A DNA stretch of 64,000 nucleotides, from contig JAHFBE010000002.1 of assembly GCA_023250205.1 (NCBI GenBank), positions 4,084 through 68,083 on the forward strand, in the 5' to 3' direction. Origin of the DNA: Candidatus Melainabacteria bacterium. GTDB taxonomy: Bacteria > Cyanobacteriota > Vampirovibrionia > 2-02-FULL-35-15. The notes beneath the pieces were generated by a model. That model was not told where the DNA came from. It saw only the letters and a list, made by a program, of their open reading frames with translations, and did no database searches. How positions within the stretch are numbered: the first letter of the stretch is position 1; every line of letters begins with the position of its first letter. Below are positions 7,587 to 52,784 of the stretch, in pieces. The position numbers were made by a program, and so were the translations under genes.

Positions 7587-7961
7587 ATGAATGAAAGCAA
7601 AAAAAATATAAAGATAAATATTAATGATATTCCTTGTTATTGTTCTGTTGGAATTGCGACTGAAGAAAAGAAAATGGGACAGAAGCTTATTGTTAGTGTA
7701 AATTTGGAAATTGATTCTACAAAGCTAGCTAAAACAGATGCTATAGAAGATACAGTAAGCTATGTAGATGTATACAAAATAGTACAGCAAATCGGGCAAT
7801 CTAAATCTTTTTCCTTAATTGAATTTCTTGCAGAAGAACTTGTTTCTGGAATTTTACAGATGCCGCTTGTACTTTCTGCTAAAGTAAAGGTCTGTAAGCC
7901 TCATATACCATATAAAGATTTTCAGGGAAATGTCTCAGTTGAAGTTGAAAGAAGAAAATGA
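7587..7961 (+). CDS. folB: dihydroneopterin aldolase
   Basis: 124 aa. Has the GIATEEKKMGQKLIVSV pattern and VSYVDVY...IEFLAEEL, typical of FolB. It sits directly upstream of pabB-pabC. Confidence 0.7.
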   Translation: MNESKKNIKININDIPCYCSVGIATEEKKMGQKLIVSVNLEIDSTKLAKTDAIEDTVSYVDVYKIVQQIGQSKSFSLIEFLAEELVSGILQMPLVLSAKVKVCKPHIPYKDFQGNVSVEVERRK

Positions 7962-7967
7962 CCTCTG

Positions 7968-7999
7968 GTCATTGCGAGGAATGAAGTGACGAAGCAATC
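7968..7999 (+). repeat. palindromic-element half copy at the folB/pabB junction
   Basis: GTCATTGCGAGGAATGAAGTGACGAAGCAATC. It contains the GTG annotated as the pabB start. Confidence 0.7.
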
Positions 8000-9305
8000 T
8001 CAACCAAATAATTGCTTGAGTTCTGATAACTTAGACATAAAATTGTTAGAGGATTTAAAAAAATCGCAAATTTCCTTCTGGGTAGATAGTTCTGGTGGTC
8101 CACAAGAATTATGCAAAAGCTCATTTTATGGAGTGAATCCTAAATATTATATTTATGGCTCTTTAAATGAAATTAACTTATGTGAAAGTGAAAGCGGAGC
8201 AATTACTTTTGCTAAAGAAAACTGCTTTGATTTTTTAGAAGAGAAAATTAAGGAAGAAAAAGGAAATCCAGATGGAATATTTATAGGATATTTTGCTTAT
8301 GATTTATTTCAAGGAAATGAAAAAAGGAACTATCCTGATTTTTTCTTTGCTTATTTTGATGTCATTGTGAGGGAGAACGAAGTCCTGACGAAGCAATCCC
8401 GATCGCTTGTACACAAGTTAGATCAGGATTGCCACGCCTCACTTTATTCGACTTGCAATGACATTTTCACTTCAAATATGACTGACTCTGAATATCTTGA
8501 AAAAGTTAAACAGATTAAAGAAGAAATAAGAGCTGGAAATGTTTATCAGGTAAATCTTACTCGTGAATACTCAGCTACAGTAAAAAACATTGATGATTTA
8601 GGACTTTATCTAAAACTAAGATCAACTTCTCCAAACCCCTATGGTTGTTATTTTAAGACCCCTTTTCTCAGCATTCTTTCAAGTTCACCAGAAGAATTTC
8701 TTTATATCAATAGCAAAGAAAAATACATTAGAACACGTCCAATTAAAGGGACGTTGACTAAAGATGAGTTTGAAATAGATCCAAAGAACCAAGCTGAAAA
8801 CATAATGATTGTGGATTTAGAAAGAAATGATTTAGGCAGGATTTGTGAGTATGGAACGGTGGAGGCTAAGAAATTATTGGAAATTGAGTCATATAAGCAT
8901 TTGAATCATGTTGTTTCTACTGTAGAAGGAAAGCTAAAGTCTGACATAGGATTAAAAAAAATATTTGAGGCGTTATTTCCAGGTGGATCAATTACTGGAG
9001 CTCCAAAAATTTCAGCAATGAAAATTATAGAGAAAGTAGAACCCACAAAAAGAGGAGCTTATACAGGGACGTTTGGTTATATAAAAACAGATGGAACTAT
9101 GGACTTTAATATTTTAATTAGGACAATTTTGGTACAACCAGAACTGTCATTGCGAGTGAATGAAATGAGCGAAGCAATCCTGGACACGTTCCGTGTCACT
9201 TTCAATGTAGGTGGTGGAATTGTTGCAGATTCAAATCCTGAGAGTGAACTGGAAGAGACAAGGTTAAAAGCAGAAGGTATACTTGGAGCATTAAGTGTAG
9301 GGTAA
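7986..9305 (+). CDS. pabB: aminodeoxychorismate synthase component I; carries two in-frame palindromic-element insertions
   Basis: Chorismate-binding motifs GNVYQVNLTR, LERNDLGR, PGGSITGAPK, RGAYTGTFGY and GGGIVADSNPESELEET. The annotated GTG start lies inside a repeat half-element, so the true start is uncertain. Confidence 0.85.
   Translation: MTKQSQPNNCLSSDNLDIKLLEDLKKSQISFWVDSSGGPQELCKSSFYGVNPKYYIYGSLNEINLCESESGAITFAKENCFDFLEEKIKEEKGNPDGIFIGYFAYDLFQGNEKRNYPDFFFAYFDVIVRENEVLTKQSRSLVHKLDQDCHASLYSTCNDIFTSNMTDSEYLEKVKQIKEEIRAGNVYQVNLTREYSATVKNIDDLGLYLKLRSTSPNPYGCYFKTPFLSILSSSPEEFLYINSKEKYIRTRPIKGTLTKDEFEIDPKNQAENIMIVDLERNDLGRICEYGTVEAKKLLEIESYKHLNHVVSTVEGKLKSDIGLKKIFEALFPGGSITGAPKISAMKIIEKVEPTKRGAYTGTFGYIKTDGTMDFNILIRTILVQPELSLRVNEMSEAILDTFRVTFNVGGGIVADSNPESELEETRLKAEGILGALSVG
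8361..8462 (+). repeat. full palindromic element (102 bp) in-frame inside pabB
   Basis: GTCATTGTGAGGG...GACGAAGCAATCCCGATC...GGATTGCCACGCCTCACTTTATTCGACTTGCAATGAC. It encodes VIVRENEVLTKQSRSLVHKLDQDCHASLYSTCND. Confidence 0.85.
9146..9207 (+). repeat. shortened palindromic element (~60 bp) inside the pabB 3' region
   Basis: GTCATTGCGAGTGAATGAAATGAGCGAAGCAATCC...CACTTTCAATG. It encodes SLRVNEMSEAILDTFRVTF. Confidence 0.65.
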
Positions 9306-12984: not shown

Positions 12985-13030
12985 GTCATTCTGAGCCAAA
13001 GGCGAAGAATCTCATGACGTTATGAGATCC
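12985..13030. repeat. variant half element plus hairpin between the ABC gene and leuA
   Basis: GTCATTCTGAGCCAAAGGCGAAGAATCTCATGACGTTATGAGATCC, in which ATCTCAT pairs with ATGAGAT. Confidence 0.55.
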
Positions 13031-15448
13031 TTAGGTAGTAGCTTTTCTGGCTGAAGTTGCTTTTCCTGGCTTTGATTGTTTGCTGAACTTAACTGTTTTT
13101 CCACCCCCACCTTTTTTCTCAAGTTCTGAACTGTATTCAATTAACTTTTCATCATGAGTAACACAAATAATAGTTGTTCCTCCTTTGTGGATCTTTTGAA
13201 GAATATTCCTAATTTCTAGAGCAGTTTCTGAATCGAGACCTTGTGTAGGTTCATCAAGCAGTAAGATTTTTGGTTTTGTATACAAAGCTCTTGCCAGTCC
13301 AAATCTTACTCTCTCTCCACCGGATAAATATTTAAGAGCCTCACATTGACCAACTTTTTCACCAAGGATGTCAGTGAATTGATGTAAATTTAAATATTCT
13401 AATAATTTCTTAAGAGTTTCATCATCGTCAGTAGCTTCATTATAAAAAACTATATTTTCTCTTAACGTCATCTCTGAAAATATATCAGGCTTTTGATTTG
13501 CGTAAGACATGACTGAGTAGATTGACTCATCACCATATTTTTTAACATCGGTAGTTTTAACTCCACCCTTTCCATTGCTTTCACCAATCAGAATACTGCC
13601 GTTCTCTGGTTGATGAAGTCCTGCGATGTTCTTTAGAAGAGTAGATTTTCCTATTCCTGAAGGACCGGCAATAGTTACAAAGTCACCTTGTTTAATATCT
13701 AAATTGATTCCTTTTAAAATGTTTTTGAACCTCAATCCTTTTATTGAAATATTGAAATTATTTAATTTAGAAACAGGGATTCTTCTCTTCTCTTCTTCCC
13801 CATCAGGAAGGTCAGGTTTCTCAAATTCTCCAAGGATTCTTTCCATTCTTCTAATATTTTCGCGGAGTCTGGGAAATTCTTTGCAGAGTTTATTAACCAT
13901 CTCTTTAAACGGATCACTTATTCCTTCTGAATACAATACATTTGAAAAGACAGCACCTTCTGAGATTTTACCCATCCAGTGTAGACAAAGAGAAGATAAT
14001 GCAGACAATATTTGAGTTGTACTAAATGTAAAATAAGAAGTGTATCTTAATTTTGTTTCATAGAGAAGTCTTTGCAGAGTTAGCTTATCAAGCTGATCCA
14101 TTTTATCTTTCACAGAACGTTCTATTTTTGGAGTGTTTGGAGAGGTTAATATTGTTTCTATTCCATCCTTTACTGAAGCTAATTCATTTGCTACTTTTTC
14201 TTTAGCTTTTGTTGCTTCCCTGTGTACGGGACTGATTTTACGGTTATAGGTTTTGCCTATCATGAAGGTTATAGGAATACTCAGAAGATTAATGAAAGTA
14301 AGAAGAGGATTTATAAGTGTTAAGCCGATTAAAGAAGCTCCTACAGCAATTGTCTTTGGAAAAAGAAGAGACATAGATTCAGAGAGAATGGTAATAGTTG
14401 ATTCTTTGCCACGCTCTAAACTTTCTATGATTTCGCCTAAAGATCTATCTTGTGTAAATTTATATTTATTGAAAATTAATGACTGAGAAATTCTTCTGTT
14501 AATTTTAGATCTGACATCGTTCATTAATTTTGCTTCATTTAATTCTCCCGCTAAATCAAAATAAGCAGAAATTCCATTTCCTGTAAGAAGCCCGACGGTT
14601 GGTAAGGCAATTCCATACTGAAAGAAAAAAGGAGCAACTCCCTGTATTGTGCCTGAAAGAAGGTGGCTCAACATTATTTTAGCTATCGTCCCCTTACTCT
14701 TTCCCATCTCATACTGATTCCACAGTTTTGTCATGGCAATTAGTAAACTATCTTCATCTTTTGCAGATACAATAAGCTCAGTTAAAATTTCTATCTCATC
14801 TTTTGTTAGTGGATACCTTTTTGTTAGATTTTTCAAAAGCTCATTTCTAATCTCTATCTGGTCTTCGATTTCTGCTTTATAATAGTTTGAAGCTTGAAGA
14901 AACTCATTTATATCTTGCTCAAAAGATTTTGCATTATGAATGTTTATAAGAGAATCAAAGTGAAACCAGCTTAATGCCTCAAGTTCCTGAAGCTTCTCCT
15001 CGCATAGATGTTGACTAGGTATAGCTTTTATACTTTCAATTAGATCACGAGTCCAGCTTTCTATTTTTTCACCTACTTCTTCACTTTCAATATCGATGAA
15101 TTCACGATGAGGATGATTCTCTGATACGGTTGTTTTTATTTCTATACTTTCTATAAGTTTTTGATATTTCCCTGTCAATTCTGAATTAAGTAATTTAGCA
15201 AGTGTAAAAATACTTTCTGGTTGTAATTCTTGCTCTTCTTTTACTCCATCCAATTCTGATTGATTAAATCTTTGAATGGCAAATCTTAAAGATTGTTCGT
15301 ATTCAAAAGATGTAATAGGTGAGTGGGTTTCTTTAGTAACATTAGTGGGGGCTTCTGAAGAAGCTTTTATTCTTTCAACCTCTTTTTTTATTGGTCTGAA
15401 AGAATCACTCTCAGGGTGCTTAAATAATTTTTCTACAAGTAAACTCAT
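13031..15448 (-). CDS. ABC exporter (fused TMD-NBD) with a ~250-aa N-terminal helical extension
   Basis: Walker A GPSGIGKST, signature LSGGERVRFGLARAL, Walker B ILLLDEPT and H-loop VTHD. Hydrophobic segments lie mid-protein and the C-terminal tail is basic. Confidence 0.8.
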   Translation of the reverse strand: MSLLVEKLFKHPESDSFRPIKKEVERIKASSEAPTNVTKETHSPITSFEYEQSLRFAIQRFNQSELDGVKEEQELQPESIFTLAKLLNSELTGKYQKLIESIEIKTTVSENHPHREFIDIESEEVGEKIESWTRDLIESIKAIPSQHLCEEKLQELEALSWFHFDSLINIHNAKSFEQDINEFLQASNYYKAEIEDQIEIRNELLKNLTKRYPLTKDEIEILTELIVSAKDEDSLLIAMTKLWNQYEMGKSKGTIAKIMLSHLLSGTIQGVAPFFFQYGIALPTVGLLTGNGISAYFDLAGELNEAKLMNDVRSKINRRISQSLIFNKYKFTQDRSLGEIIESLERGKESTITILSESMSLLFPKTIAVGASLIGLTLINPLLTFINLLSIPITFMIGKTYNRKISPVHREATKAKEKVANELASVKDGIETILTSPNTPKIERSVKDKMDQLDKLTLQRLLYETKLRYTSYFTFSTTQILSALSSLCLHWMGKISEGAVFSNVLYSEGISDPFKEMVNKLCKEFPRLRENIRRMERILGEFEKPDLPDGEEEKRRIPVSKLNNFNISIKGLRFKNILKGINLDIKQGDFVTIAGPSGIGKSTLLKNIAGLHQPENGSILIGESNGKGGVKTTDVKKYGDESIYSVMSYANQKPDIFSEMTLRENIVFYNEATDDDETLKKLLEYLNLHQFTDILGEKVGQCEALKYLSGGERVRFGLARALYTKPKILLLDEPTQGLDSETALEIRNILQKIHKGGTTIICVTHDEKLIEYSSELEKKGGGGKTVKFSKQSKPGKATSARKATT

Positions 15449-24444: not shown

Positions 24445-25278
24445 TTATTTTTTAGATCTGCGCTTTTGTCTCCACTGAGATGGAGTTTCTACAATAAAAT
24501 CTTGCTTCTCCCAAATTCCAAGCATATTTTGCCTGGCATATATTTGAGCTTTTTTAAGCTTATTTATGTACTTTATATTTGGAGGGAAGTCATAAAGTAT
24601 AGCGTAGCCATTTTTTAAAAGCTCTTCGTTTATAAATGTCATTGCGAGCCGAGCAGAGCGTTGCTTCGTCTCTTTGCTACTCGCAACAAACACATACCCA
24701 AGAGTTCTTCTATAAACGTCATTTTTTTGAACATCGGTTTCAATGCAAACATTTTTATTTAATAAAAGCATAGTTAAAAAATCTTTTCCTTGAAGTCCAT
24801 AAATATTTTGATCATGTTCAAATGCGTCAATTCCAAGTAGTCTGACTTTTTTATTGTCATTGCGAGCCGAACAAAGTGAGGCGTGGCAATCCCGAGGGAA
24901 TTCATGTAAAGAGATCGAGGTTGCTTCGCCCGCCTTTGGCGCGGCTTCGTCGCTATTGCTCCTCGCAATGACAATTGTGTCTCCATCAAGCACTTTTTTT
25001 ACGATATATTGTTTGTCATCCTTTGAGCAATCGTTTTGTTCTGTCATTGCGAGCCGAGCAGAACGAGGCGTGGCAATCCCGGGAGAATTTACGTAAAACG
25101 ATTGGGATTGCTTCGCCAGGGCTAAAGCCCTTCCTCCCAATGACAAATTGTTATAATCTAAGATTGAGAAAGAAAATAAAAACAAAATGAAAAAAACTTC
25201 TCTAGCAATATTTTTAATTTTAAGCATATTCTTTTTTGCTAACAAGGCTATATCTATTATTATTGCAGATAAAGACAA
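24445..25278 (-). CDS. staphylococcal-nuclease (thermonuclease)-like protein interrupted by palindromic elements; start uncertain
   Basis: SNase-type blocks VLDGDTIVI, KVRLLGIDAFE, YRRTLGYVF and NEELLKNGYA. The ORF as given overlaps the divergent ccp start. An alternative in-frame ATG at 25047 lies inside an element terminus. Confidence 0.6.
   Translation of the reverse strand: MSLSAIIIDIALLAKKNMLKIKNIAREVFFILFLFSFSILDYNNLSLGGRALALAKQSQSFYVNSPGIATPRSARLAMTEQNDCSKDDKQYIVKKVLDGDTIVIARSNSDEAAPKAGEATSISLHEFPRDCHASLCSARNDNKKVRLLGIDAFEHDQNIYGLQGKDFLTMLLLNKNVCIETDVQKNDVYRRTLGYVFVASSKETKQRSARLAMTFINEELLKNGYAILYDFPPNIKYINKLKKAQIYARQNMLGIWEKQDFIVETPSQWRQKRRSKK
24638..24688 (-). repeat. shortened palindromic element (51 bp) in-frame in the nuclease gene
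   Basis: GTCATTGCGAGCCGAGCAGAGCGTTGCTTCGTC...CTCGCAAC. The coding strand gives VASSKETKQRSARLAMT. Confidence 0.7.
24856..24972 (-). repeat. full palindromic element (117 bp) in-frame in the nuclease gene
   Basis: Termini GTCATTGCGAG (24856) and CTCGCAATGAC (24972). The coding strand gives VIARSNSDEAAPKAGEATSISLHEFPRDCHASLCSARND. Confidence 0.85.
25043..25144 (-). repeat. full palindromic element (102 bp) at the nuclease 5' end / ccp-nuclease divergent region
   Basis: GTCATTGCGAGCCGAGCAGAACGAGGCGTGGCAATCCC...GGGATTGCTTCGCC...CCCAATGAC. Confidence 0.8.
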
Positions 25279-28483: not shown

Positions 28484-31090
28484 TTACTTACATTTAATCG
28501 TGTCATTTAGATCTATAGATCCATCATTTTTATTTGCACATGTAAGCTTTTTGCTATAGCAAGAAGCCAAATTGTCAGGATTTGAACATGTTGGGGTTAG
28601 TCCACGAGAACAAACTGCTTTATTGTTCTCTGTACATCTAGGAGTGCCTCTACTTGCCAGATCAAATGGACAGATGCATTTGCATGCTTGTTTATCTTCC
28701 CTGCAAGAATTAAAGCGTTTTCCTGATGGACAAAGTTTTTTAGTGTTGCAGGATGTGGTATCTTCGTCAGATGATCTGAGAATTCCAGTAGTGCAATATG
28801 CTGAGTTTACACTTAAAACTGTGCTACTTACATTCCTACATCCAGGACCAGATAAATCATTTACAAAACCTAATGATGAACCGCAGGTTGGGATGTTTGT
28901 GCTGCTGTTTGTGCAAAGAGGGGATCCAGTATTGCACATGATAGAGCCATTGGAACAGAATGGAGAAGCATTTGGAAGTGCGCAGAATTGAGAAATTTGA
29001 CCTGAACAATTTGGTCTTCCACGGCAGGGATCAATGACTACGCATACCTCACCATTTCTACATATAGCAGAACCACATTGAGCAGTTGAGCCACTGCTTG
29101 AGGATGAAGTAGCACATGGGTCAACTAAATAATTTATAAGAATACATTGATTGCCTAGGCAATTGTATTTTTGGTAAGTCATACCGCTTGGACATGTACC
29201 TATTGGACAATTGCTAGATACTGTACATGAAGGACCTCCACTTGAAGAACTTGTAGAACATGGAACAGGATTATTTGCAATGGCGAGAACACTGTTTTTT
29301 GCAGATTCAAGAGCAGTGAATACAGTATTTGAATCTGAGTTATTTATTCCAGGAACAGGTTGTAGCCCCTGGGTATTTGGATCATAATCATATTCTTGCC
29401 CAAGCCTAAGAGCTGTAAGCAGACCCTCATAATTAAAAACCTTTTCCAGATAAACATTAAAATTTGGATTAGTATCCAGGCAGATATTTATAGAAGAAAT
29501 AGAAGAGTAAAAGCTTTTAGATCTGTTTAAATCGTTCAGATAAAGTTTAACCTTAGCTATTTCTGCTTTTACAAGGTTTGGATCACTCAAGCCGTTTGGG
29601 TTTTGAAGAGTAGTTAGCCCAGAGACTGCACAGGAGAGAGTTTCCCCTGCAAATATTGCAGCTAAAAGATATTGTAAGTCACCAATTCTTATGTTTGCAA
29701 CAGTTATTTTTGTGTTGATTTCAGCAAGTCTGTCTACTATACTCATATTTACGGTGTATGGGCTTAGTGGAATTGGGACAATGGAGTATCTAATATTAGA
29801 AACAGGCTCTAGAGAGTCTGCATTCCCGGAGATATTTAATGTTCTGAATGATCCTTGGCATGGATTATTGATTGGAAATGAACAATCTATGTCACTTTGA
29901 AGTGCTTGAATTGTAAGCCTTTCCTGAGTTAGAACAGAGAACATATATGCAGAATTAGAAGCATTATTACCATAAACGCCAATACCTGAAACAGCTTGAA
30001 TCCCAGGAGTGCTTGGATCTGCATCAAATTCTTGTCCAAGATAAAGAGCACTTATTAACCCTTCAAGATTAACTATAAATCGTAGTTTAGTATTAAAAAA
30101 TATATTAGTAACTAAACAGAATTTAAAACTTGAGAAGCTTGTCCAGAAATCTCTTACATTTGTTATTAAACTTATATAAGAGTTTATTCCATTAATGGCA
30201 TTGGTAACTTCAGATAGGCTTGAATTATTAACCCCGGAAACTACACATGGTTTGGTTGTGTTGTTTATAATGGCATTTTTTAGATTTTCAAGAACAGTTT
30301 TTCTTTCATTTGCAATTGAAAGTTTTGTATTTGCTTCACTTACTCTGCTCTGAGGACTAAATGAGTTTGTGTATGGGGATAATGGAATTGGCACTAATGA
30401 ACAATTCCCTGGACAATTTAGTGTTCCACAGCCAGTCTGACAACCATTCTCATCTCTTGGAATATTTATATAAGTACAACTTGTTGGAGGAGCAGGGCAT
30501 GGTGGAGGATTACACTGACAACTTAACGTTCCACAGCCAGTCTGACAGCCATTCTCATCTCTTGGAATATTTATATAAGTGCAACCTGATGGTGGAGCAG
30601 GGCATGGCGGAGGGTTACATTGACAGCTCAATGTCCCACAGCCGGTTGGACAACCATTTATATCCTTTGGAATATTTATATAGGTACAGCCTGTTGGTGG
30701 AGCAGGGCATGATAAAATCGGACAAATAACTGGTTCGCAATATGCACATTGTGAGCAGGTTTGAGGAACAAGCTTATATCCAGGTTGGCATAGAGGTATT
30801 ACCTGAGGACATACAACACAATTACTCGTTGTACAAGTTACTGAACCGGGAAAAATAGAAAGAGAAGTTCGACAACTTGGCCCAAAAACATTACTACAAA
30901 TTACCTCGCCGCTTTTTCCTCCACTACAGATAGGAGTTCCACTAGGCACACAGGTTGGGATTCCGTTTGAACAGGAAACATCTGCTGAAAACACAGGGAT
31001 AAAGCCTTGAATTATAAAAACATAGAGGGTAGAAATTACTATTATTGATGACCTTAAATAATTAAGAATAAGATTCTTATTAAACTGCAT
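28484..31090 (-). CDS. Cys-rich secreted array protein (868 aa from the internal ATG; fifth in transcription order)
   Basis: The track ORF (28484..31324) overlaps the upstream gene. The ATG at 31090 has AGGAGGG 8 bp upstream and gives the signal-like N-terminus MQFNKNLILNYLRSSIIVISTLYVFIIQGFIPVFSA. The protein contains 3 repeats of 35 aa, 2 repeats of about 150 aa, and a C-terminal 18-Cys module. Confidence 0.7.
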   Translation of the reverse strand: MQFNKNLILNYLRSSIIVISTLYVFIIQGFIPVFSADVSCSNGIPTCVPSGTPICSGGKSGEVICSNVFGPSCRTSLSIFPGSVTCTTSNCVVCPQVIPLCQPGYKLVPQTCSQCAYCEPVICPILSCPAPPTGCTYINIPKDINGCPTGCGTLSCQCNPPPCPAPPSGCTYINIPRDENGCQTGCGTLSCQCNPPPCPAPPTSCTYINIPRDENGCQTGCGTLNCPGNCSLVPIPLSPYTNSFSPQSRVSEANTKLSIANERKTVLENLKNAIINNTTKPCVVSGVNNSSLSEVTNAINGINSYISLITNVRDFWTSFSSFKFCLVTNIFFNTKLRFIVNLEGLISALYLGQEFDADPSTPGIQAVSGIGVYGNNASNSAYMFSVLTQERLTIQALQSDIDCSFPINNPCQGSFRTLNISGNADSLEPVSNIRYSIVPIPLSPYTVNMSIVDRLAEINTKITVANIRIGDLQYLLAAIFAGETLSCAVSGLTTLQNPNGLSDPNLVKAEIAKVKLYLNDLNRSKSFYSSISSINICLDTNPNFNVYLEKVFNYEGLLTALRLGQEYDYDPNTQGLQPVPGINNSDSNTVFTALESAKNSVLAIANNPVPCSTSSSSGGPSCTVSSNCPIGTCPSGMTYQKYNCLGNQCILINYLVDPCATSSSSSGSTAQCGSAICRNGEVCVVIDPCRGRPNCSGQISQFCALPNASPFCSNGSIMCNTGSPLCTNSSTNIPTCGSSLGFVNDLSGPGCRNVSSTVLSVNSAYCTTGILRSSDEDTTSCNTKKLCPSGKRFNSCREDKQACKCICPFDLASRGTPRCTENNKAVCSRGLTPTCSNPDNLASCYSKKLTCANKNDGSIDLNDTIKCK
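30410..30711 (-). repeat. 3 x 105-bp coding tandem repeat
   Basis: Encodes CPAPP[TS][GS]CTYINIP[KR]D[IE]NGC[PQ]TGCGTL[SN]C(QCNPPP), three times. Confidence 0.8.
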
Positions 31091-31229
31091 ACTACACCCT
31101 CCTGTACTTGCAATAAATTTTTGTTGATATTTTTTAACTAATGGATTAGAACAAATGTTTCTTAAGAAAACTTTAAAGTAGACATTAAAATAAATTAATG
31201 TTGTGAAATTAATGGTTAGTACTAAATTT

Positions 31230-32909
31230 TTATTCTGGAGCACATCGCAAAAGTTGTGCCTTGCATTCAACAGCTCTCTCATCATCTCTACAACAATCTG
31301 GTGTTTTTTGAGGGTATCCTGCAATGCATTTTGGTTTATAGTCTGAGTTTGTACAATAGGCCTTTAGTCCATTTGAACACTTGACTTGTCCACTTACAGA
31401 GCAGAAAGCTTCTCCTTGTAAATTTGCGATTGGTTTAGCCTGCTTCCCTACTTCTGATTTCAAAGTAAATAGCCGTGATGAAATTCCAGCAGCAGTTGAT
31501 ACAACAAGTGTTGCATCTGTTTTTTGTGAGACTACGCTAAACGGAAAATCCAGAGTTATTCTCATTTCTGTTCCACCATTAAACACAGATACTTTTTTAA
31601 TTTCTGCTTTCAAAGTTGACGGGAAAATTGTGACATCAGTATTAGATGTTCCTTTTGGACTTTGAATAAAATTTTCTTCATTGTTGCTATCAGTGTATAA
31701 AAACGACATTCCAATAAAGTTATCTCCTCGTACACTTAAAATAACTCTGTTTTTGTTTTTGCTTATTGTGATTCTTGTAATTAATGGTTTTGATACATGC
31801 CTTCTATTTATTCCTTTTCCTTTAAAGACAGATATTTCAAATGGAATGACGATGTAAATAACTCCGTTTAGAGAAGTTCCATCACTAAGATTTAATCCGA
31901 ATCTTGTTTCTCCTCCTTTTATACTGTCGGGAATCGATAAACTTAAAATGTATCTTTCCGGTTGACCTGATATCGGTGTAACTATAAAAGGAACATCTTT
32001 GAATACAAATCCAGAACTGTCTTTTAAATCTACAGAAGCTATGGTTGTGCCAGGATTATCAGATGGAAGTTTAACTTCAAATGAAGGATTTGAACCTACG
32101 TATGCAAAGCCGGATTTATTAGCAAAATCATCAGTTACAAGAGGGAGTTCAACAACATCAGGTAGCTTCGGAGTTGAAACCACATCAATAGAAACTGTTT
32201 GAAATTCATTTCCTTCAGGAGTGACATCAGGAGAAGGGCATGATATTTTAAGTTCTGGTTTACAGGATAGTGAAATGCCATTAGATTTGCAACATTCGAT
32301 AACATTGGAAGGGTAACCAGGAAGACATTTTGGAGCGTATGTTTCATCAGAGCAAACCGCAAGTGCTCCACCAGAACAATAAACGAATTCATCCTTACAG
32401 TATGCCCCGATATCAACTGATCCTGAAGATGAGCTTGATGATGATGTGCTTGTAGAAACTTTGCAAATAGGAAGTTCTGATTTGCAGTCAAAAGATATTC
32501 CATTATTTTTACAACAGTCAATTACATTTTCAGGAAAGCCAGGCAAGCAAGTTGGTTTATATTCTGAATTACTGCATGTGGGGGTAAGACTTCCTGTGCA
32601 GGAAACAATTCCACCCGAACAAAACACTTTACTATTGTTTGTGGACGTTGTTGTTCCAGAACTTGAAGAAGAGCTGCTGCTTGATGAAGATGAGGAAGAA
32701 CTAGAGGAGATGCCTCCACCAGAAGAAGAGCTGGAACTTGATGAACTAGAGGATGAGCTGACTTGAAATAATAATTGTTGATCTGGATTTGAATTAGCAA
32801 ACGAGGATAAAGAAGAAGAGCTTTGTATTATTAAAGATGCTATAGATATACTAAGTACTAATAGAATCCTTGCTTTATTTGTCAGTGTTATATTGTTTTT
32901 ATAGAACAT
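31230..32909 (-). CDS. Cys-rich / poly-Ser secreted array protein (559 aa; fourth)
   Basis: Signal-like N-terminus and poly-Ser runs. Carries three copies of a ~52-aa 8-Cys module and a beta-rich region shared with the 714- and 889-aa paralogs. Confidence 0.7.
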   Translation of the reverse strand: MFYKNNITLTNKARILLVLSISIASLIIQSSSSLSSFANSNPDQQLLFQVSSSSSSSSSSSSSGGGISSSSSSSSSSSSSSSSSGTTTSTNNSKVFCSGGIVSCTGSLTPTCSNSEYKPTCLPGFPENVIDCCKNNGISFDCKSELPICKVSTSTSSSSSSSGSVDIGAYCKDEFVYCSGGALAVCSDETYAPKCLPGYPSNVIECCKSNGISLSCKPELKISCPSPDVTPEGNEFQTVSIDVVSTPKLPDVVELPLVTDDFANKSGFAYVGSNPSFEVKLPSDNPGTTIASVDLKDSSGFVFKDVPFIVTPISGQPERYILSLSIPDSIKGGETRFGLNLSDGTSLNGVIYIVIPFEISVFKGKGINRRHVSKPLITRITISKNKNRVILSVRGDNFIGMSFLYTDSNNEENFIQSPKGTSNTDVTIFPSTLKAEIKKVSVFNGGTEMRITLDFPFSVVSQKTDATLVVSTAAGISSRLFTLKSEVGKQAKPIANLQGEAFCSVSGQVKCSNGLKAYCTNSDYKPKCIAGYPQKTPDCCRDDERAVECKAQLLRCAPE

Positions 32910-33020
32910 AGTTTTTGCTTAAATAATGAGATTTAATAAAGTGTCCATATAGATTATGGCATAAGTACAAGGGTACTTTTCAAGGGTTTTATTTTTTTTT
33001 AAGATCTCTAAAAGCCACTA

Positions 33021-33042
33021 AAGGCGCTAAATTTAGCGCCTT
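33021..33042 (-). terminator. hairpin downstream of the 714-aa array gene
   Basis: AAGGCGCTAA-AT-TTAGCGCCTT. The flanking T-run is weak. Confidence 0.4.
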
Positions 33043-33090
33043 TAAGGAAATTAAGAATTTCTTAATTCTTGGTTAAATAGATCCCTTAAC

Positions 33091-50272: not shown

Positions 50273-50373
50273 GTCATTGCGAGGAGGGGCAAAGCTCCGA
50301 CGAAGCAATCCCGATCTAACTTGCGCAAATTGTTTGGGATTGCCACGCCTCACTTTGTTCGGTTCGCAATGAC
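50273..50373. repeat. full palindromic element (101 bp), intergenic between the sulfotransferase and purL 3' ends
   Basis: GTCATTGCGAGGAGGGGCAAAGCTCCGACGAAGCAATCCCGATC...GGGATTGCCACGCCTCACTTTGTTCGGTTCGCAATGAC. Confidence 0.85.
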
Positions 50374-50386
50374 GCGGTACAAAACA

Positions 50387-52726
50387 TTATTGACTTATTA
50401 TATTACTTAGAGAATTTGCCCAGATTTGCTTTAACTCAAGAGCTTTAGTTTTAAGATTTAGTGATTTAATCTCTATGTTTTCTTTAACAACCTCACCAAT
50501 TATTTCGTATGGGCAATTGTTTTCCTTTAAGTATTTTTCTGTTTCTGTAAGATTATTTTTATCAAGACTAATAACTATCCTACTTTGAGTTTCACCGAAT
50601 AATAGGGAGTCTAGTCGTACTAAATTAACATTATCTGCCATGTGAGATTGCTTCGTCGCTGCTTTGCAGCTCCTCGCAATGACAGAAGCATCTAAAATAA
50701 ATCCTACGTTATTAGCAAATGCACTTTCACAAAGGGTTATAAGTAATCCTCCTACAGAGCAATCATTTGCGGATTTAATCAGTTTATTTTTGATAAGCTT
50801 TCTGACTGAAGACTGAACTCTCTTTTCCAGATCAAAATCAAGCTCAGGTACTTTACCTTTTATACTTTTTGTGCGTAAGTAAAGATATTCTGAAGCACCA
50901 ATTTCATCTTTTTGTTTTCCAAGCATGATGAGGATGTCCCCAGAAGTTTTAAATGAATGATCAATTGTAAGTTCGATATCATCAATATAGCCAACCATGC
51001 CAATTACAGGGGTAGGCCATATATCTGTTCCATTTGATTCGTTGTATAAGCTTACATTTCCACCAGTAACAGGAGTATCAAATTCAAGACATGCTTCTTT
51101 TATTCCTTTTATGGATTCGGATAGTTGCCAGTATATTTCTGGCTTTTCAGGGTTTCCGAAGTTTAAATTATCAGTAAGAGCAATAGGAAGTGCTCCTGTA
51201 CAGGAAATGTTCCTTGCTGCTTCAGCCACTGCTATCTTTGAACCCAGATAGGGATCAAGATAAACATAAGCTGAATTGCCATCACATGTTGCAGCTAGAC
51301 CTTTTGTTAAAGAAGCATGAGACATGAGACATGAAGCATGATTGTCTTTTCCTGTTTCCTGCTTCGTGCTTCGTGCTTCTGCCTTTATCCTTATCAAGCC
51401 TGCGCTGCCACCAGGTTTGATGACAGTGCTTGTTTGTACCTGGTGATCATACTTTGAATAAATCCATTTCTTAGAGCATATGTTTGGCGAAGCAAGCAAC
51501 TCCTTTAAGGTAGGTAAAACTTCTTCTTTTTTTATGTCTGGAATTGAGTTGGGATTAAATTTTTGATTTTCTTTAAAGTAAAGAGGTTCTTTCTTTTCTC
51601 TTTTATAAACAGGGGTATCATTTACAAGAGCGCTTGCATCCATATCGACAACAATTTTATTTTTGTGTTTGACGACTATTTTTTTTGTATTAGTTATTTC
51701 GCCTATTTGAATGCAGTCAAGCCCCCACTTTGTAAAAACAGCATTGATATTTTGTTCAAACCCCTTTTTTACAACAAACAACATTCTTTCCTGAGATTCA
51801 GAAAGCATGTATTCAATTGGTGTAAGCTCGGTTCTTACAGGGACTTTATCAAGATCAACTTCAATCCCTACATTTCCTTTTGCTGCCATTTCTGATGTAG
51901 AACAGGTTAATCCAGCAGCACCCATATCCTGAGCAGCTACTATGTAGCCTGTTTTAAAAGCCTCAAGACAGGCTTCTATTAAAATCTTTTCAGTAAAAGG
52001 ATCTCCAACCTGAACAGCAGGTCTGTCTTTATGGCTATCTTCTGTTAGTCCACTACTAGCAAAACTAGCTCCACCAAGTCCGTCTCTTCCAGTCTTTGAA
52101 CCTACATAAAAAACAGGATTGCCTGATCCACTTGCATTTGATTTAACTATTTCATTAGTTTCAATTAATCCAATAGCCATAGCATTTACAAGAGGATTTT
52201 CATTATAAGTGGGGTAAAAATAGGCTTCACCACCAATATTTGGAATTCCAGTGCAGTTTCCATAATGTCCTATTCCGCTTACTGCACCAGGAAACAAAAA
52301 TCTGGAACGAGGTAGATTTAAATCTCCGAATCTTAAACTATCAAGAACTGCTATTGGTCTTGCGCCCATAGTGAAAATATCACGTAAGATTCCACCAACT
52401 CCAGTTGTTGCTCCTTGGAAAGGCTCTATTGCTGTAGGTCGATTATGAGATTCAATTTTAAAGGCAATTCTTATCCCATCCCCAAGGTCAACTACGCCAG
52501 CATTTTCTCCAGGCCCCACTAAAACATATTTGTTTTTTGTAGGAAGTTCTTTTAACAGTGCTTTTGAATCTTTATAACAACAGTGCTCTGACCACATTAC
52601 GGAAAACATATGAAGCTCAACTTCATTAGGTTCTTTTCCGATAAGCTCTACTATTTTTGAATACTCATCAGAAGTAAGTTTGAGTTTGGCTAAAAGCTCT
52701 TTGTTTATACTTACACAAGTAGTCAT
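50387..52726 (-). CDS. purL: phosphoribosylformylglycinamidine synthase subunit PurL; carries in-frame repeat insertions
   Basis: Motifs FSVMWSEHCCYK, ESHNRPTAIEPFQGATTGVGGILRDI and DMGAAGL. Confidence 0.9.
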   Translation of the reverse strand: MTTCVSINKELLAKLKLTSDEYSKIVELIGKEPNEVELHMFSVMWSEHCCYKDSKALLKELPTKNKYVLVGPGENAGVVDLGDGIRIAFKIESHNRPTAIEPFQGATTGVGGILRDIFTMGARPIAVLDSLRFGDLNLPRSRFLFPGAVSGIGHYGNCTGIPNIGGEAYFYPTYNENPLVNAMAIGLIETNEIVKSNASGSGNPVFYVGSKTGRDGLGGASFASSGLTEDSHKDRPAVQVGDPFTEKILIEACLEAFKTGYIVAAQDMGAAGLTCSTSEMAAKGNVGIEVDLDKVPVRTELTPIEYMLSESQERMLFVVKKGFEQNINAVFTKWGLDCIQIGEITNTKKIVVKHKNKIVVDMDASALVNDTPVYKREKKEPLYFKENQKFNPNSIPDIKKEEVLPTLKELLASPNICSKKWIYSKYDHQVQTSTVIKPGGSAGLIRIKAEARSTKQETGKDNHASCLMSHASLTKGLAATCDGNSAYVYLDPYLGSKIAVAEAARNISCTGALPIALTDNLNFGNPEKPEIYWQLSESIKGIKEACLEFDTPVTGGNVSLYNESNGTDIWPTPVIGMVGYIDDIELTIDHSFKTSGDILIMLGKQKDEIGASEYLYLRTKSIKGKVPELDFDLEKRVQSSVRKLIKNKLIKSANDCSVGGLLITLCESAFANNVGFILDASVIARSCKAATKQSHMADNVNLVRLDSLLFGETQSRIVISLDKNNLTETEKYLKENNCPYEIIGEVVKENIEIKSLNLKTKALELKQIWANSLSNIISQ
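50644..50683 (-). repeat. palindromic-element half copy in-frame in the purL 3' region
   Basis: GAGATTGCTTCGTCGCTGCTTTGCAGCTCCTCGCAATGAC. The coding strand gives VIARSCKAATKQSH. Confidence 0.7.
51309..51385 (-). repeat. second type of in-frame insertion in purL: an imperfect palindrome with heptamer periodicity
   Basis: GAAGCATGAGACATGAGACATGAAGCATG...CCTGTTTCCTGCTTCGTGCTTCGTGCTTCTGCC. It encodes KAEARSTKQETGKDNHASCLMSHAS. Confidence 0.55.
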
Positions 52727-52770: not shown

Positions 52771-52784
52771 GTCATTGCAATGAC
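52771..52784. repeat. minimal 14-bp perfect palindrome made of the two element termini
   Basis: GTCATTGCAATGAC, lying between the purL start and the SirB1-like gene stop. Confidence 0.5.

What the first reader, a model, noticed from the sequence alone, without database searches (positions are those of the whole stretch)
8361..8462. ~100-bp palindromic element family inserted in-frame in housekeeping genes (RPE-like behaviour)
**The family.** Elements have inverted termini GTCATTGCGAG / CTCGCAATGAC. They also carry an internal pair, GACGAAGCAATCCC / GGGATTGCCACGCC. I found at least 10 copies in this window:
- 7968 (half copy)
- 8361-8462
- 9146-9207
- 12985 (variant)
- 24638-24688
- 24856-24972
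- 25043-25144
- 50273-50373
- 50644-50683
- 52771-52784

**Length and frame.** The intergenic copy is 101 bp. Copies lying inside ORFs are 102, 117 and 51 bp, all multiples of 3, and contain no stop codon.

**Orientation.** In pabB (plus strand) and in the nuclease gene (minus strand) the full copies have the same orientation and frame relative to the coding strand. They give near-identical peptides: VIVRE..TKQS...DCHASLYSTCND and VIARS........DCHASLCSARND.

**Interpretation.** In-frame colonisation of protein genes by palindromic repeats is the hallmark of Rickettsia palindromic elements. Seeing it here in pabB, purL and an SNase-like gene suggests an independent family with the same behaviour.
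Basis: partly seen in the sequence, partly recalled or inferred. Interest (0 to 1): 0.7.

Follow-up and report, generated by a model that had tools for sequence, protein, structure and literature searches.

The report
Hairpin repeats inserted in-frame in genes
A family of about 100-bp hairpin-forming DNA repeats has landed in-frame inside working genes (pabB, purL, a nuclease) of an uncultured Melainabacteria genome; it belongs to a known, widespread repeat superfamily that includes some Rickettsia palindromic elements, and elsewhere the same repeat flanks a small GIY-YIG nuclease gene.

Summary
The window holds nine copies of one palindromic family (terminal motif: 12 hits against 0.38 expected) and one copy of a sister family.

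Six copies lie in-frame and stop-free in pabB, purL and an SNase-like gene. DNA from a syntenic relative and alignments of close orthologs show empty sites, or a different repeat, at the same positions. The sites are linkers and beta-hairpin turns.

The claim of an independent family is not. Each element is a head-to-head dimer of YGTC-tagged hairpin units, the architecture of the CGTC-tagged REP superfamily (Di Nocera 2013), which includes Rickettsia RPE-4 and RPE-6 and Neisseria dRS3. The same sequence occurs in many bacterial phyla.

In 65 of 76 metagenomic loci, a 95-aa GIY-YIG nuclease gene sits between the two halves of this repeat. That is the IS-like layout described in 2025 for Ssn single-strand nucleases, although this repeat fails the published Ssn-related motif (SRM) search pattern.

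Best reading: these are non-autonomous REPIN/MITE-like derivatives, probably mobilised by an Ssn-type nuclease, that survive in genes only where they fall in-frame in permissive loops. This is a new member of a known kind, of moderate interest.

The parts
7968..8003 (+). Single A-type half unit (GTCATTGCGAG-N-GACGAAGCAATCTC) between the folB stop codon (7959-7961) and pabB. It contains GAGGA-N5-GTG; the GTG at 7986 is the first start codon of the pabB ORF.
   Evidence: E 4e-10. It is conserved almost base for base in the syntenic relative L121. In six orthologs the listed protein starts inside it (MTKQSQ / VTKQSR).
8361..8462 (+). Full A-B head-to-head dimer, 102 nt. It lies in frame 1 in the PabB interdomain linker and encodes VIVRE..TKQS..DCHASL..CND.
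   Evidence: DNA fold -18.7 kcal/mol, z -3.5. In L121 the same nucleotide position holds a different (NTS/CGTC-1-like) dimer. The AF2 model has pLDDT below 50 for residues 140-146 and 154-162, inside this segment.
9146..9193 (+). Truncated copy (A half plus a remnant) in frame 2 (SLRVNEMSEAIL). It sits in the hairpin before the VTFNVGGG strand of PabB.
   Evidence: There is a 16-aa gap in PabB 4grh and a 48-nt gap in L121. Full-length versions occupy the same site in P0122, P0123, P0125, P0128, P0158 and P0159. pLDDT is below 50 at residues 397-403.
12985..13040 (+). Copy of a sister family (GTCATTCTGAGC..GAAGAATCTC), intergenic.
   Evidence: It is absent from the orthologous intergenic region of L121.
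24638..24688 (-). Internally deleted mini copy, 51 nt, in-frame in the SNase-like gene (..SSKETKQRSARLAMT..).
   Evidence: There is a 12-aa gap opposite it in S. aureus nuclease. Ortholog P0241 has a full-length copy of the same family at this site, and distant orthologs have none.
24856..24972 (-). Full A-B dimer, 117 nt, in frame 1 in the SNase-like gene, between DGDTI and KVRLLGID.
   Evidence: DNA fold -26.2 kcal/mol, z -3.3. Orthologs P0242, P0244 and P0245 lack it.
25043..25144 (-). Full A-B dimer, 102 nt, in frame 2 (SLGG..LAMT), between the predicted signal peptide and the SNase domain.
   Evidence: DNA fold -26.3 kcal/mol, z -5.6. The segment is largely absent from orthologs that share the N-terminal signal-like sequence.
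50273..50373 (+). Full A-B dimer, 101 nt, intergenic, between the convergent sulfotransferase and purL genes.
   Evidence: z -2.7; E 5e-9.
50644..50683 (-). A-type half unit in frame 1 in purL (VIARSCKAATKQSH). The net insertion is 60 nt (about 50634-50693).
   Evidence: There is a gap in T. thermophilus PurL 3viu. It is absent from all close orthologs aligned. There is a 60-nt gap in L123. One search gives E 6e-11.
52771..52784 (.). Minimal palindrome GTCATTGCAATGAC (tags and outer stem only), intergenic, upstream of purL.
   Evidence: Whether it is a deletion remnant is an inference.
7986..9305 (+). Host gene pabB (aminodeoxychorismate synthase component I type).
   Evidence: Pfam Chorismate_bind 1.3e-76; PDB 4grh 1.2e-57.
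24445..25227 (-). Host gene encoding a secreted SNase-fold nuclease homolog.
   Evidence: Pfam SNase 2.7e-17; orthologs.
50387..52726 (-). Host gene purL.
   Evidence: Pfam AIRS, AIRS_C and FGAR-AT linker; PDB 3viu 5.9e-196.

Best explanation
**What the elements are.** They are gene-less head-to-head dimers (REPIN- or MITE-like) of a YGTC-tagged hairpin repeat. The family falls in the CGTC-tagged REP / Ssn-related-motif superfamily.

Each half unit reads: (T/C)GTC tag, then ATTGC, then GAG, then a small variable hairpin (often with a GAA loop), then CGAAGCAAT, then a CC/CT tail. Two halves face each other across a variable loop.

**The likely autonomous form.** In other bacteria that loop holds a roughly 95-aa single-domain GIY-YIG nuclease gene. 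This is the layout reported for Ssn single-strand-DNA nucleases, which cut ssDNA just 5' of their hairpin repeat. The short copies in this window are most likely non-autonomous derivatives, spread in trans through single-stranded DNA hairpins without target-site duplication.

**Why they sit in genes.** In this Melainabacteria lineage many copies landed inside genes. The copies that persist have a net length that is a multiple of 3, contain no stop codon, and fall in a linker or beta-hairpin turn. They are presumably translated as extra surface peptide, and they then decay by internal deletion.

**What is shown:**
- the family and its architecture;
- the in-frame insertions;
- the empty sites in relatives;
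- the loop positions;
- the spread across phyla;
- the lack of target-site duplication;
- the nesting of the GIY-YIG gene.

**What is inferred:**
- mobilisation by the nuclease;
- translation of the inserts;
- neutrality of the inserts.
For: **Family and architecture.**

**The segments are insertions.**
- Ortholog alignments.
- DNA empty sites.
- Gaps in PDB homologs.
- AF2 model with a confident core (pTM 0.81) and low-confidence inserts.
- An independent assembly, 99.93% identical over 8.3 kb, carries the same copies.

**Lineage-wide colonisation.** The focal-family peptide signature occurs in 21 of 62 melainabacterial PabB orthologs against 1 of 58 (a false positive) in other phyla. For PurL the figures are 3 of 45 against 0 of 75.

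**Superfamily features.**
- The -1 base is T or C in 96% of 179 full elements.
- 13 of 14 intact termini in the window have T or C at -1 (my count from the sequences).
- The outer stem starts with AT, and the units form head-to-head dimers.
- Target-site duplication is not above the control.

**Nuclease link.**
- A GIY-YIG gene lies inside the loop in L115 and L043 (Pfam GIY-YIG).
- Of 76 metagenomic loci of this GIY-YIG clade that could be judged on both sides, 65 have the 5' motif upstream and the 3' motif downstream. The single-side counts are 71 of 78 and 73 of 78.
- The B-type half lies on the 3' side of the gene (13 against 3), which matches the A-to-B orientation of the window copies.

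**Length modulo 3.** Gene-less copies elsewhere are multiples of 3 in only 31 of 104 cases. All four genic full or mini copies here are multiples of 3, and the intergenic copy is 101 nt.

**Literature.** PMC3733652 and PMC11893778.
Against: - No GIY-YIG gene lies in the 64-kb window (tblastn). Whether the source genome has one is unknown.
- The published SRM search pattern matches none of the window halves (0 hits).
- The half unit does not have the 8-9 bp stem and 4-5 nt loop of the four described CGTC families, so membership is by architecture rather than by the published definitions.
- Only a minority of copies have a clear inner hairpin: a stem of at least 4 bp in 28% against 7% of shuffles.
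- Transposition by Ssn-type nucleases has not been demonstrated by anyone; the 2025 paper raises it only as a hypothesis.
- Retention of the inserts in mRNA and protein was not tested.
- Different families sit at exactly the same nucleotide position in the window and in L121. Simple random insertion followed by selection does not obviously explain this.
Confidence: 0.7

Rival explanations
1. The repeats are REPINs or BIMEs mobilised by a RAYT (an IS200/IS605-type tyrosine transposase) or by another, non-dedicated transposase. On this view the GIY-YIG gene is only a passenger or a user of the repeats.
For: - The head-to-head dimer layout, the hairpins and the absence of target-site duplication are also REPIN properties.
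- Di Nocera et al. suggested that CGTC repeats might be moved by a broad range of transposases.
Against: - The tag is YGTC, not GTAG.
- Clustering ORFs within 250 nt of the repeat in the 120 genome loci gave no recurrent neighbouring protein family apart from repeat-derived spurious ORFs.
- The gene nested between the halves is GIY-YIG in 65 of 76 loci.
- Di Nocera et al. found no RAYT gene flanked by CGTC units.
Confidence: 0.1
2. The copies do not transpose. They spread and are exchanged by recombination or gene conversion between existing hairpin repeats, or arise by hairpin-primed repair. Hot spots then reflect overwriting of a resident element.
For: - Different families occupy the identical nucleotide position in pabB in the window and in L121. 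Almost every melainabacterial PabB ortholog carries some repeat-derived peptide in that linker.
- The families share the terminal TGTCATT...AATGACA sequence.
- The window copies look old and eroded.
Against: - Clean empty sites in close relatives (48 nt and 60 nt) require de novo insertion at new sites.
- The family is present in many phyla at unrelated loci.
Confidence: 0.1
3. The inserted segments are selected functional additions to the proteins, or the hairpins are RNA-level regulatory elements (terminators or translation pauses), rather than tolerated selfish DNA.
For: - The 7968 half unit is nearly identical in a relative that is 87-88% identical overall. It offers an SD-like GAGGA and a GTG start for pabB.
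- The intergenic copy lies between convergent genes, as is typical for REPs (PMC3733652).
Against: - Presence, absence and family identity vary freely among close orthologs.
- The peptides are low-confidence in the model.
- The same DNA is read in different frames in different genes.
- There are no Pfam or NCBIfam hits for the peptides and no Rfam family.
Confidence: 0.06
4. The host genes are pseudogenes, or the inserts are spliced out (intron- or intein-like), so nothing extra is made.
For: None directly. Nothing in the sequence alone rules out removal at the RNA level.
Against: - The ORFs are full length with strong domain matches. By my reading of the alignments, the PIKGT motif of PabB is present, and the SNase residues aligned to the S. 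aureus catalytic residues are kept except for a Thr-to-Ala change.
- The elements are far smaller than group I or II introns, and no Rfam family matched.
- No intein-type domain was hit.
- Insert lengths are multiples of 3 and free of stops. That would be unnecessary if the inserts were removed.
Confidence: 0.03

Closest known systems
CGTC-tagged REP superfamily (Di Nocera, De Gregorio & Rocco 2013, BMC Genomics 14:522; PMC3733652). It includes Rickettsia conorii RPE-4 and RPE-6 and Neisseria dRS3.
   Same: - Terminal CGTC/TGTC tag.
- Stem starting with AT.
- Short C-rich tail.
- Predominantly head-to-head dimers.
- Presence in several phyla.
- Copies inside ORFs that encode 20-30 extra residues.
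- Sister copies in relatives of this genome encode the CGTC-1 and CGTC-4 peptides listed in that paper.
   Different: - The core sequence is ATTGCGAG...GAAGCAAT.
- The outer stem is only 5 bp, followed by a purine-rich internal loop and a variable inner hairpin. The described families have an 8-9 bp stem and a 4-5 nt loop.
- Its peptides (VIAR, HCE, TKQS, LAMT) do not occur in the supplementary files held for that paper, which include its list of intragenic repeats.
- Melainabacteria are not named in the passages of that paper that I read.
Ssn nucleases and their NTS/SRM repeats (Nat Commun 2025; PMC11893778).
   Same: - A roughly 95-aa single-domain GIY-YIG gene flanked on both sides by inverted YGTC-tagged hairpin repeats, giving an IS-like repeat-gene-repeat layout.
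- Hundreds of gene-less copies in some genomes.
- A wide phyletic spread.
   Different: - The repeat fails the published SRM pattern HGTCWYN(0-2)YYVSBRH... (0 hits).
- Membership of the nuclease in cd10448 and its ssDNA cleavage activity were not testable here.
- None of the passages retrieved from that paper deals with in-frame colonisation of genes.
Rickettsia palindromic elements in the classic sense (RPE-1 and others; Ogata et al. 2000; Claverie & Ogata 2003; cited from my own knowledge).
   Same: - Palindromic repeats of 100-150 bp.
- In-frame insertion in housekeeping genes at surface positions.
- Decay by deletion.
   Different: - A different lineage (Melainabacteria).
- No hit of the encoded peptides to any NCBIfam or Pfam model.
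- The family here is not lineage-restricted.
REPINs and RAYTs (Bertels & Rainey 2011; PMC3116915).
   Same: - Two inverted hairpin units separated by a spacer, about 100 nt in total.
- No target-site duplication.
- A single associated nuclease gene flanked by the units.
   Different: - The tag is YGTC, not GTAG.
- The associated gene is a GIY-YIG nuclease, not a HUH tyrosine transposase.
- The GIY-YIG gene is 65-80% identical across phyla. This hints at horizontal spread, unlike the mostly vertically inherited RAYTs.

Membership tests
CGTC-tagged REP superfamily | Unpaired terminal tag CGTC (or TGTC) at the head of each unit. | tested here: met
   13 of 14 intact termini in the window have T or C before GTC (my count). 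Across 179 full elements from many phyla the -1 base is T in 58% and C in 38%.
CGTC-tagged REP superfamily | A stem of 8-9 bp starting with A-T pairs and a loop of 4-5 nt. | tested here: not met
   The stem starts ATT.../...AAT but is only 5 bp (ATTGC/GCAAT). It is followed by a purine-rich internal loop and a variable inner hairpin. This fits none of the four described families.
CGTC-tagged REP superfamily | A short unpaired tail (consensus CCA) and predominant head-to-head dimers. | tested here: met
   Tails are CCC, CTC or CCT in the window and commonly CCAG elsewhere. All full copies are head-to-head dimers.
Ssn-related motif (SRM) repeats | Match to the published SRM search pattern HGTCWYN(0-2)YYVSBRHN(0-5)WNVSBRGN(0-2)RNCYNB. 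| tested here: not met
   There are 0 matches in the window, and none of 11 half units match. The positive control NTS does match.
Ssn-related motif (SRM) repeats | The repeat flanks a single-domain GIY-YIG gene of about 94 aa on both sides. | tested here: met
   L115 and L043, and 65 of 76 metagenomic loci. This was shown in other genomes, not in the window.
Ssn-related motif (SRM) repeats | The nuclease belongs to CDD family cd10448 and cuts ssDNA next to the hairpin. | not testable with these tools
   Only Pfam GIY-YIG membership and a weak match to UPF0213 protein 1zg2 could be shown.
Rickettsia palindromic elements (RPE) | A palindromic repeat inserted in-frame in protein genes at positions tolerated by the fold. 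| tested here: met
Rickettsia palindromic elements (RPE) | Sequence membership in a named RPE family. | tested here: inconclusive
   The focal-family peptides hit no NCBIfam or Pfam model. Only sister copies resemble the RPE-4 and RPE-6 peptides.
REPIN/RAYT | A GTAG tag and an associated RAYT gene. | tested here: not met
   The tag is YGTC. The nested gene is GIY-YIG. No recurrent neighbouring protein family other than repeat-derived ORFs was found.
Classical MITE (DDE transposon derivative) | Terminal inverted repeats together with a target-site duplication. | tested here: not met
   Terminal inverted repeats are present, but direct repeats at the flanks are no more frequent than in re-paired controls.

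The most novel reading that the evidence does not exclude
The GIY-YIG-bearing form (YGTCATTGCGAG..GAAGCAATC - 95-aa GIY-YIG gene - GATTGC..CTCGCAATGACR) is an active, horizontally spreading insertion sequence of a new mechanistic class. Its 'transposase' would be a single-strand-specific GIY-YIG nuclease, and the roughly 100-nt dimers would be its MITEs. The finding of different families at exactly the same nucleotide position in orthologous genes would then reflect hairpin-targeted homing or overwriting, not independent random hits.
Probability: 0.3. Interest if true: 0.8.

Novelty: new member of a known kind. Interest (0 to 1): 0.45.

Why it matters
**Protein-coding palindromes beyond Rickettsia.** The finding extends the 'protein-coding palindrome' phenomenon, best known from Rickettsia, to Melainabacteria, the non-photosynthetic sister group of cyanobacteria. 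The same few loops of PabB, PurL and a nuclease are hit again and again by several related repeat families.

**A candidate mobilising enzyme.** It links an unnamed but extremely widespread repeat to a specific clade of GIY-YIG nuclease genes nested inside it. Translations of this repeat (VIARSEATKQS, SLRAKRSNP, HCEERSDEAI, DCFASLAMT, LLRFARND) appear as spurious ORFs in the genome loci examined. In 2013 the CGTC-type REPs were said to lack a dedicated transposase.

**Practical consequences.**
- The published SRM search pattern misses this family.
- Such inserts inflate protein lengths.
- In the few cases seen here, contigs end inside these repeats.
- They can supply start codons to gene callers.

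Tried and rejected
- **Rfam.** The whole window at gathering threshold, and 24600-25180 at E up to 10, gave no family. There are no tRNAs.
- **Pfam and NCBIfam on the encoded peptides.** No hits, so a direct RPE-domain assignment could not be made.
- **Full-text search for the DNA strings.** Only unrelated primer matches turned up. No paper links Melainabacteria with palindromic repeats.
- **Exact look-up of the window's PurL.** This failed at first and later succeeded through P0001.
- **Recurrent neighbouring genes in the 120 genome loci.** Clustering gave only repeat-derived spurious ORFs, and a strict GIY-YIG regex found one locus. The association became clear only after searching from the nuclease side.
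- **Covariation of the inner hairpin.** Hairpins are enriched but present in a minority of copies. I therefore do not claim a conserved structured RNA.
- **GIY-YIG gene in the window.** None was found.
- **Supplements of the Ssn paper.** These are not held, so their motif list and the SsnA sequence could not be compared.
- **A private, lineage-specific family.** I considered this and rejected it.
- **Target-site duplication.** I considered this and rejected it.
Full report
**1.

The 11-mer GTCATTGCGAG, allowing one mismatch, occurs 12 times in the window against 0.38 expected. The inner motif occurs 5 times against 0.03 expected.

A profile HMM built only from copies found in other phyla recovers all of the window's copies (E from 6e-11 to 8e-3) and finds no others. 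The census for the focal family is therefore nine loci:
- 7968
- 8361-8462
- 9146
- 24638-24688
- 24856-24972
- 25043-25144
- 50273-50373
- 50644-50683
- 52771-52784

There is also one copy of a sister family at 12985.

The full copies fold as long single-strand hairpins, at -19 to -26 kcal/mol with DNA parameters and z-scores from -2.7 to -5.6.

**2. Anatomy.**

Each full copy is a head-to-head dimer of two half units.
- The A half is (T/C)GTC-ATTGC-GAG-[variable segment]-(G)ACGAAGCAAT-CC.
- The B half is the same frame with GCGTGGCAAT in place of CGAAGCAAT.

All four full copies in the window are A-B heterodimers.

With a length that is a multiple of 3, two of the three frames are open at both termini (VIAR...RND and SLR...LAMT). 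The third frame ends in TGA. The B-to-A orientation carries stops in more frames.

**3. The host genes and the organism.**

The genes are a PabB-type chorismate-binding enzyme, PurL and a secreted SNase-fold protein. The closest PurL and PabB relatives are metagenomic proteins. Those that carry names are labelled Candidatus Melainabacteria, and cyanobacteria follow at about 53% identity.

An independent ENA assembly (L204) is 99.93% identical over 8.3 kb and carries the same elements. The copies are therefore not an artefact of one assembly.

**4. The genic copies are insertions in permissive sites.**

Evidence from solved structures:
- PabB 4grh has a 16-residue gap opposite the 9146 copy.
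- T. thermophilus PurL 3viu has a gap opposite VIARSCKAATKQSH.
- S. aureus nuclease has a 12-residue gap opposite the 24638 copy.

Evidence from close orthologs:
- PurL proteins at 83-88% identity lack the purL copy.
- PabB P0121 (83%) lacks both internal pabB copies.
- SNase orthologs lack the 117-nt copy after DGDTI.

Evidence at the DNA level:
- The syntenic relative L121 (87-88% nucleotide identity) has a clean 48-nt gap at the 9146 site.
- L121 also has unrelated sequence at the 12985 site.
- L123 has a 60-nt gap at the purL site.

An AlphaFold model of PabB is confident overall (pTM 0.81). Its pLDDT falls below 50 at residues 1-21, 140-146, 154-162, 346-348 and 397-403. All but 346-348 fall within or around the three element-derived segments.

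The sites are:
- an interdomain linker and a beta-hairpin in PabB;
- a loop in PurL that varies in length among orthologs;
- in the nuclease, the region after the signal peptide and the two stretches after DGDT and after YVF. These align to the two classical beta-hairpin turns of staphylococcal nuclease (alignments; the turn assignment is from established knowledge of that structure).

By my reading of the alignments, PIKGT in PabB is retained, and the SNase residues aligned to the S. aureus catalytic residues are kept except for a Thr-to-Ala change. The genes look functional.

**5. The phenomenon is lineage-wide, with hot spots.**

Of 62 melainabacterial PabB orthologs, 21 carry peptide signatures of the focal family and 10 carry those of sister families. 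Among 58 orthologs from other phyla there is a single false positive. For PurL the counts are 3 of 45 against 0 of 75.

In the PabB linker almost every melainabacterial ortholog has some repeat-derived peptide, in different frames and from different families (VIAR.., HCEE.., CHPEQSEGSH.., SCES..HGND).

In L121 an NTS/CGTC-1-like dimer (GTCATTCCTGCGAAAGCGAGAATC...GGATTCCC...GGGAATGAC) starts at the same nucleotide as the window's 8361 copy. Random insertion followed by selection does not fully explain this coincidence. I leave it as an open point; homing or in-situ replacement are both possible.

Truncated copies correspond to full-length copies at the same site in other orthologs:
- The window's pabB copy encodes SLRVNEMSEAIL, while P0128 has SLRANEMSEAIP...PPRNDTFR at that site.
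- The window's 51-nt SNase copy corresponds to the full copy in P0241.

This shows decay by internal deletion.

**6. The family is not private to this genome.**

They come from:
- Alphaproteobacteria (many of them Bradyrhizobium)
- Gammaproteobacteria
- Chloroflexota
- Patescibacteria
- Bacteroidota
- Nostoc
- Planctomycetota
- Omnitrophota
- Helicobacter
- other groups

The same dimer architecture is seen throughout.

Across 179 full elements:
- The base before GTC is T in 58% and C in 38%.
- The outer flanks are pyrimidine-rich on the 5' side.
- There is no target-site duplication above a re-paired control.
- Gene-less copies are 73-135 nt long, with only 31 of 104 being multiples of 3.

Against that background, the four genic full or mini copies in the window (102, 117, 102 and 51 nt) are all multiples of 3, while the intergenic copy is 101 nt. 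That is what purifying selection on insertions would produce.

The variable segment forms a perfect stem of at least 4 bp in 28% of distinct copies against 7% of shuffles, and of at least 6 bp in 7% against 0.2%. There are many different stem sequences, and GAA is the commonest loop. This is suggestive of a structural constraint, but it is not universal.

**7. A nuclease gene lives inside the element elsewhere.**

In L115 and in L043 a 95-96-aa ORF with a Pfam GIY-YIG domain lies exactly between the two halves of a full element. The titles name L043 as Planctomycetota and the L115 protein as from a Firmicutes MAG.

I searched metagenomes with these two proteins, which are 59% identical to each other. 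The search returned 80 loci.
- Of the 76 loci that could be judged on both sides, 65 have GTCATTGCGAG (at most 1 mismatch) within 150 nt upstream and CTCGCAATGAC within 150 nt downstream.
- The single-side counts are 71 of 78 and 73 of 78.
- In most of the loci printed, the stop codon directly abuts the 3' half.
- When the dimer is heterotypic, the B half lies 3' of the gene (13 against 3). The A-to-B orientation of the window copies therefore corresponds to the gene's direction.

This GIY-YIG clade is very large: 8000 scored candidates, all with E at or below 1e-5. It is 65-80% identical across named phyla, including Nostoc, Roseiflexus, Dehalococcoidia and Desulfobacteraceae.

No such gene lies in the window.

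**8. Comparison with what is known.**

Di Nocera et al. 2013 (PMC3733652) defined CGTC-tagged REPs by these features:
- a CGTC or TGTC tag;
- stems starting with AT;
- a CCA tail;
- mostly head-to-head dimers;
- presence in five phyla.

They equated CGTC-1 and CGTC-4 with R. conorii RPE-6 and RPE-4 and with Neisseria dRS3. They listed intragenic copies, and they concluded that CGTC REPs lack a dedicated transposase.

A 2025 paper (PMC11893778) reported the following:
- The Neisseria repeat (NTS, CGTCATTCCCGCGMAVGCGGGAATCYRG) and related 'SRM' repeats flank a 94-aa GIY-YIG gene, ssnA, in many phyla.
- SsnA cuts single-stranded DNA just 5' of the hairpin.
- The repeat-gene-repeat layout resembles an insertion sequence.

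The window family shares the tag, the AT-start stem, the tail, the dimer layout and the nested GIY-YIG gene. It differs in two ways. It fails the published SRM pattern (0 hits, with a positive control that matches). It also lacks the 8-9 bp stem and 4-5 nt loop of the four CGTC families.

I therefore file it as a new member of that superfamily. It works like the RPE-4/RPE-6 type of in-frame REP. It is not an independent invention.

**9. Verdict.**

The behavioural interpretation is supported, and the 'independent family' part is not.

The most likely mechanism is non-autonomous hairpin-repeat dimers, mobilised through single-stranded DNA by an Ssn-type GIY-YIG nuclease and retained in genes only where they are in-frame in loops. 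I give this about 0.7 overall. The identity of the elements and their status as insertions carry higher confidence than the mobilising enzyme.

Novelty is that of a new member of a known kind. Interest is moderate.

Noticed in passing
window 51300-51385 (minus strand, inside purL): A second, unrelated palindromic in-frame insert: AGAAGCACGAAGCACGAAGCAGG...CATGCTTCATGTCTCATGTCTCATGCTTCT, encoding AEARSTKQETGKDNHASCLMSHASLT. It is absent from the close relative (38-nt plus 4-nt gap in L123). A similar 'SHASCLM' peptide occurs in PabB ortholog P0143. It looks like another repeat family that colonises loops.
   Followed up: partly
window 7968-7990: The half unit upstream of pabB contains GAGGA, five bases, then GTG (7986). 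This is an SD-like motif plus a start codon. In six melainabacterial orthologs the listed PabB protein starts at the equivalent position (MTKQSQ / VTKQSR). The repeat may donate translation start signals, or may mislead gene callers.
   Followed up: partly
L121 10330-10420 versus window 8361-8462: At the very same nucleotide of the pabB linker, the relative carries an NTS/CGTC-1-like dimer in place of the window's family. This points to repeated hits on one site, or to in-situ replacement of one repeat family by another.
   Followed up: partly
L123 1-95 and 2340-2456: The relative's purL contig begins and ends inside CGTC-1- and CGTC-4-like repeats. One is GTCATTCCCTGGCTTGACCAGGGAATC, which I translate as VIPWLDQGI; R. 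conorii RPE-4 gives VIPWLDHGI. Assemblies seem to break at these repeats.
   Followed up: no
PurL orthologs P0004, P0010, P0012, P0015, P0016, P0023 (alignment A1, columns 487-535 and 745-765): The same two PurL loops hold other short repeat-like peptides in other Melainabacteria (RGEVTSPL, CRDGETARRRDGET, VETRLIAS, RMNPAPTT). They resemble translations of GTAG-type REPs. This was not checked at the DNA level.
   Followed up: no
L121 11630-13222: The relative has an extra 530-aa HATPase_c gene between pabB and the class IV aminotransferase gene. The window lacks it.
   Followed up: no
window 25187-25227: The SNase-like gene (start at 25227, minus strand) and the plus-strand ORF starting at 25187 would overlap by about 40 nt at their 5' ends. 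One of the two start codons may be miscalled.
   Followed up: no
window 28500-40000 and 60287-62044: Several very large ORFs here have acidic (E/D/L/P) and cysteine-rich tandem repeats with periods of 69, 105 and 192 nt. Two 300-nt segments that are 99% identical lie 1458 nt apart inside the 1715-aa ORF.
   Followed up: no
L134, L043, L113 (loci from other phyla): A solo GTCATTGCGAG tag followed about 10 nt later by a complete unit recurs, for example CCGTCATTGCGAGCCCTATTACCGTCATTGCGAGCGAAGCGAAGCAATC. This may mark nested insertion, or cleavage and rejoining next to the tag.
   Followed up: no
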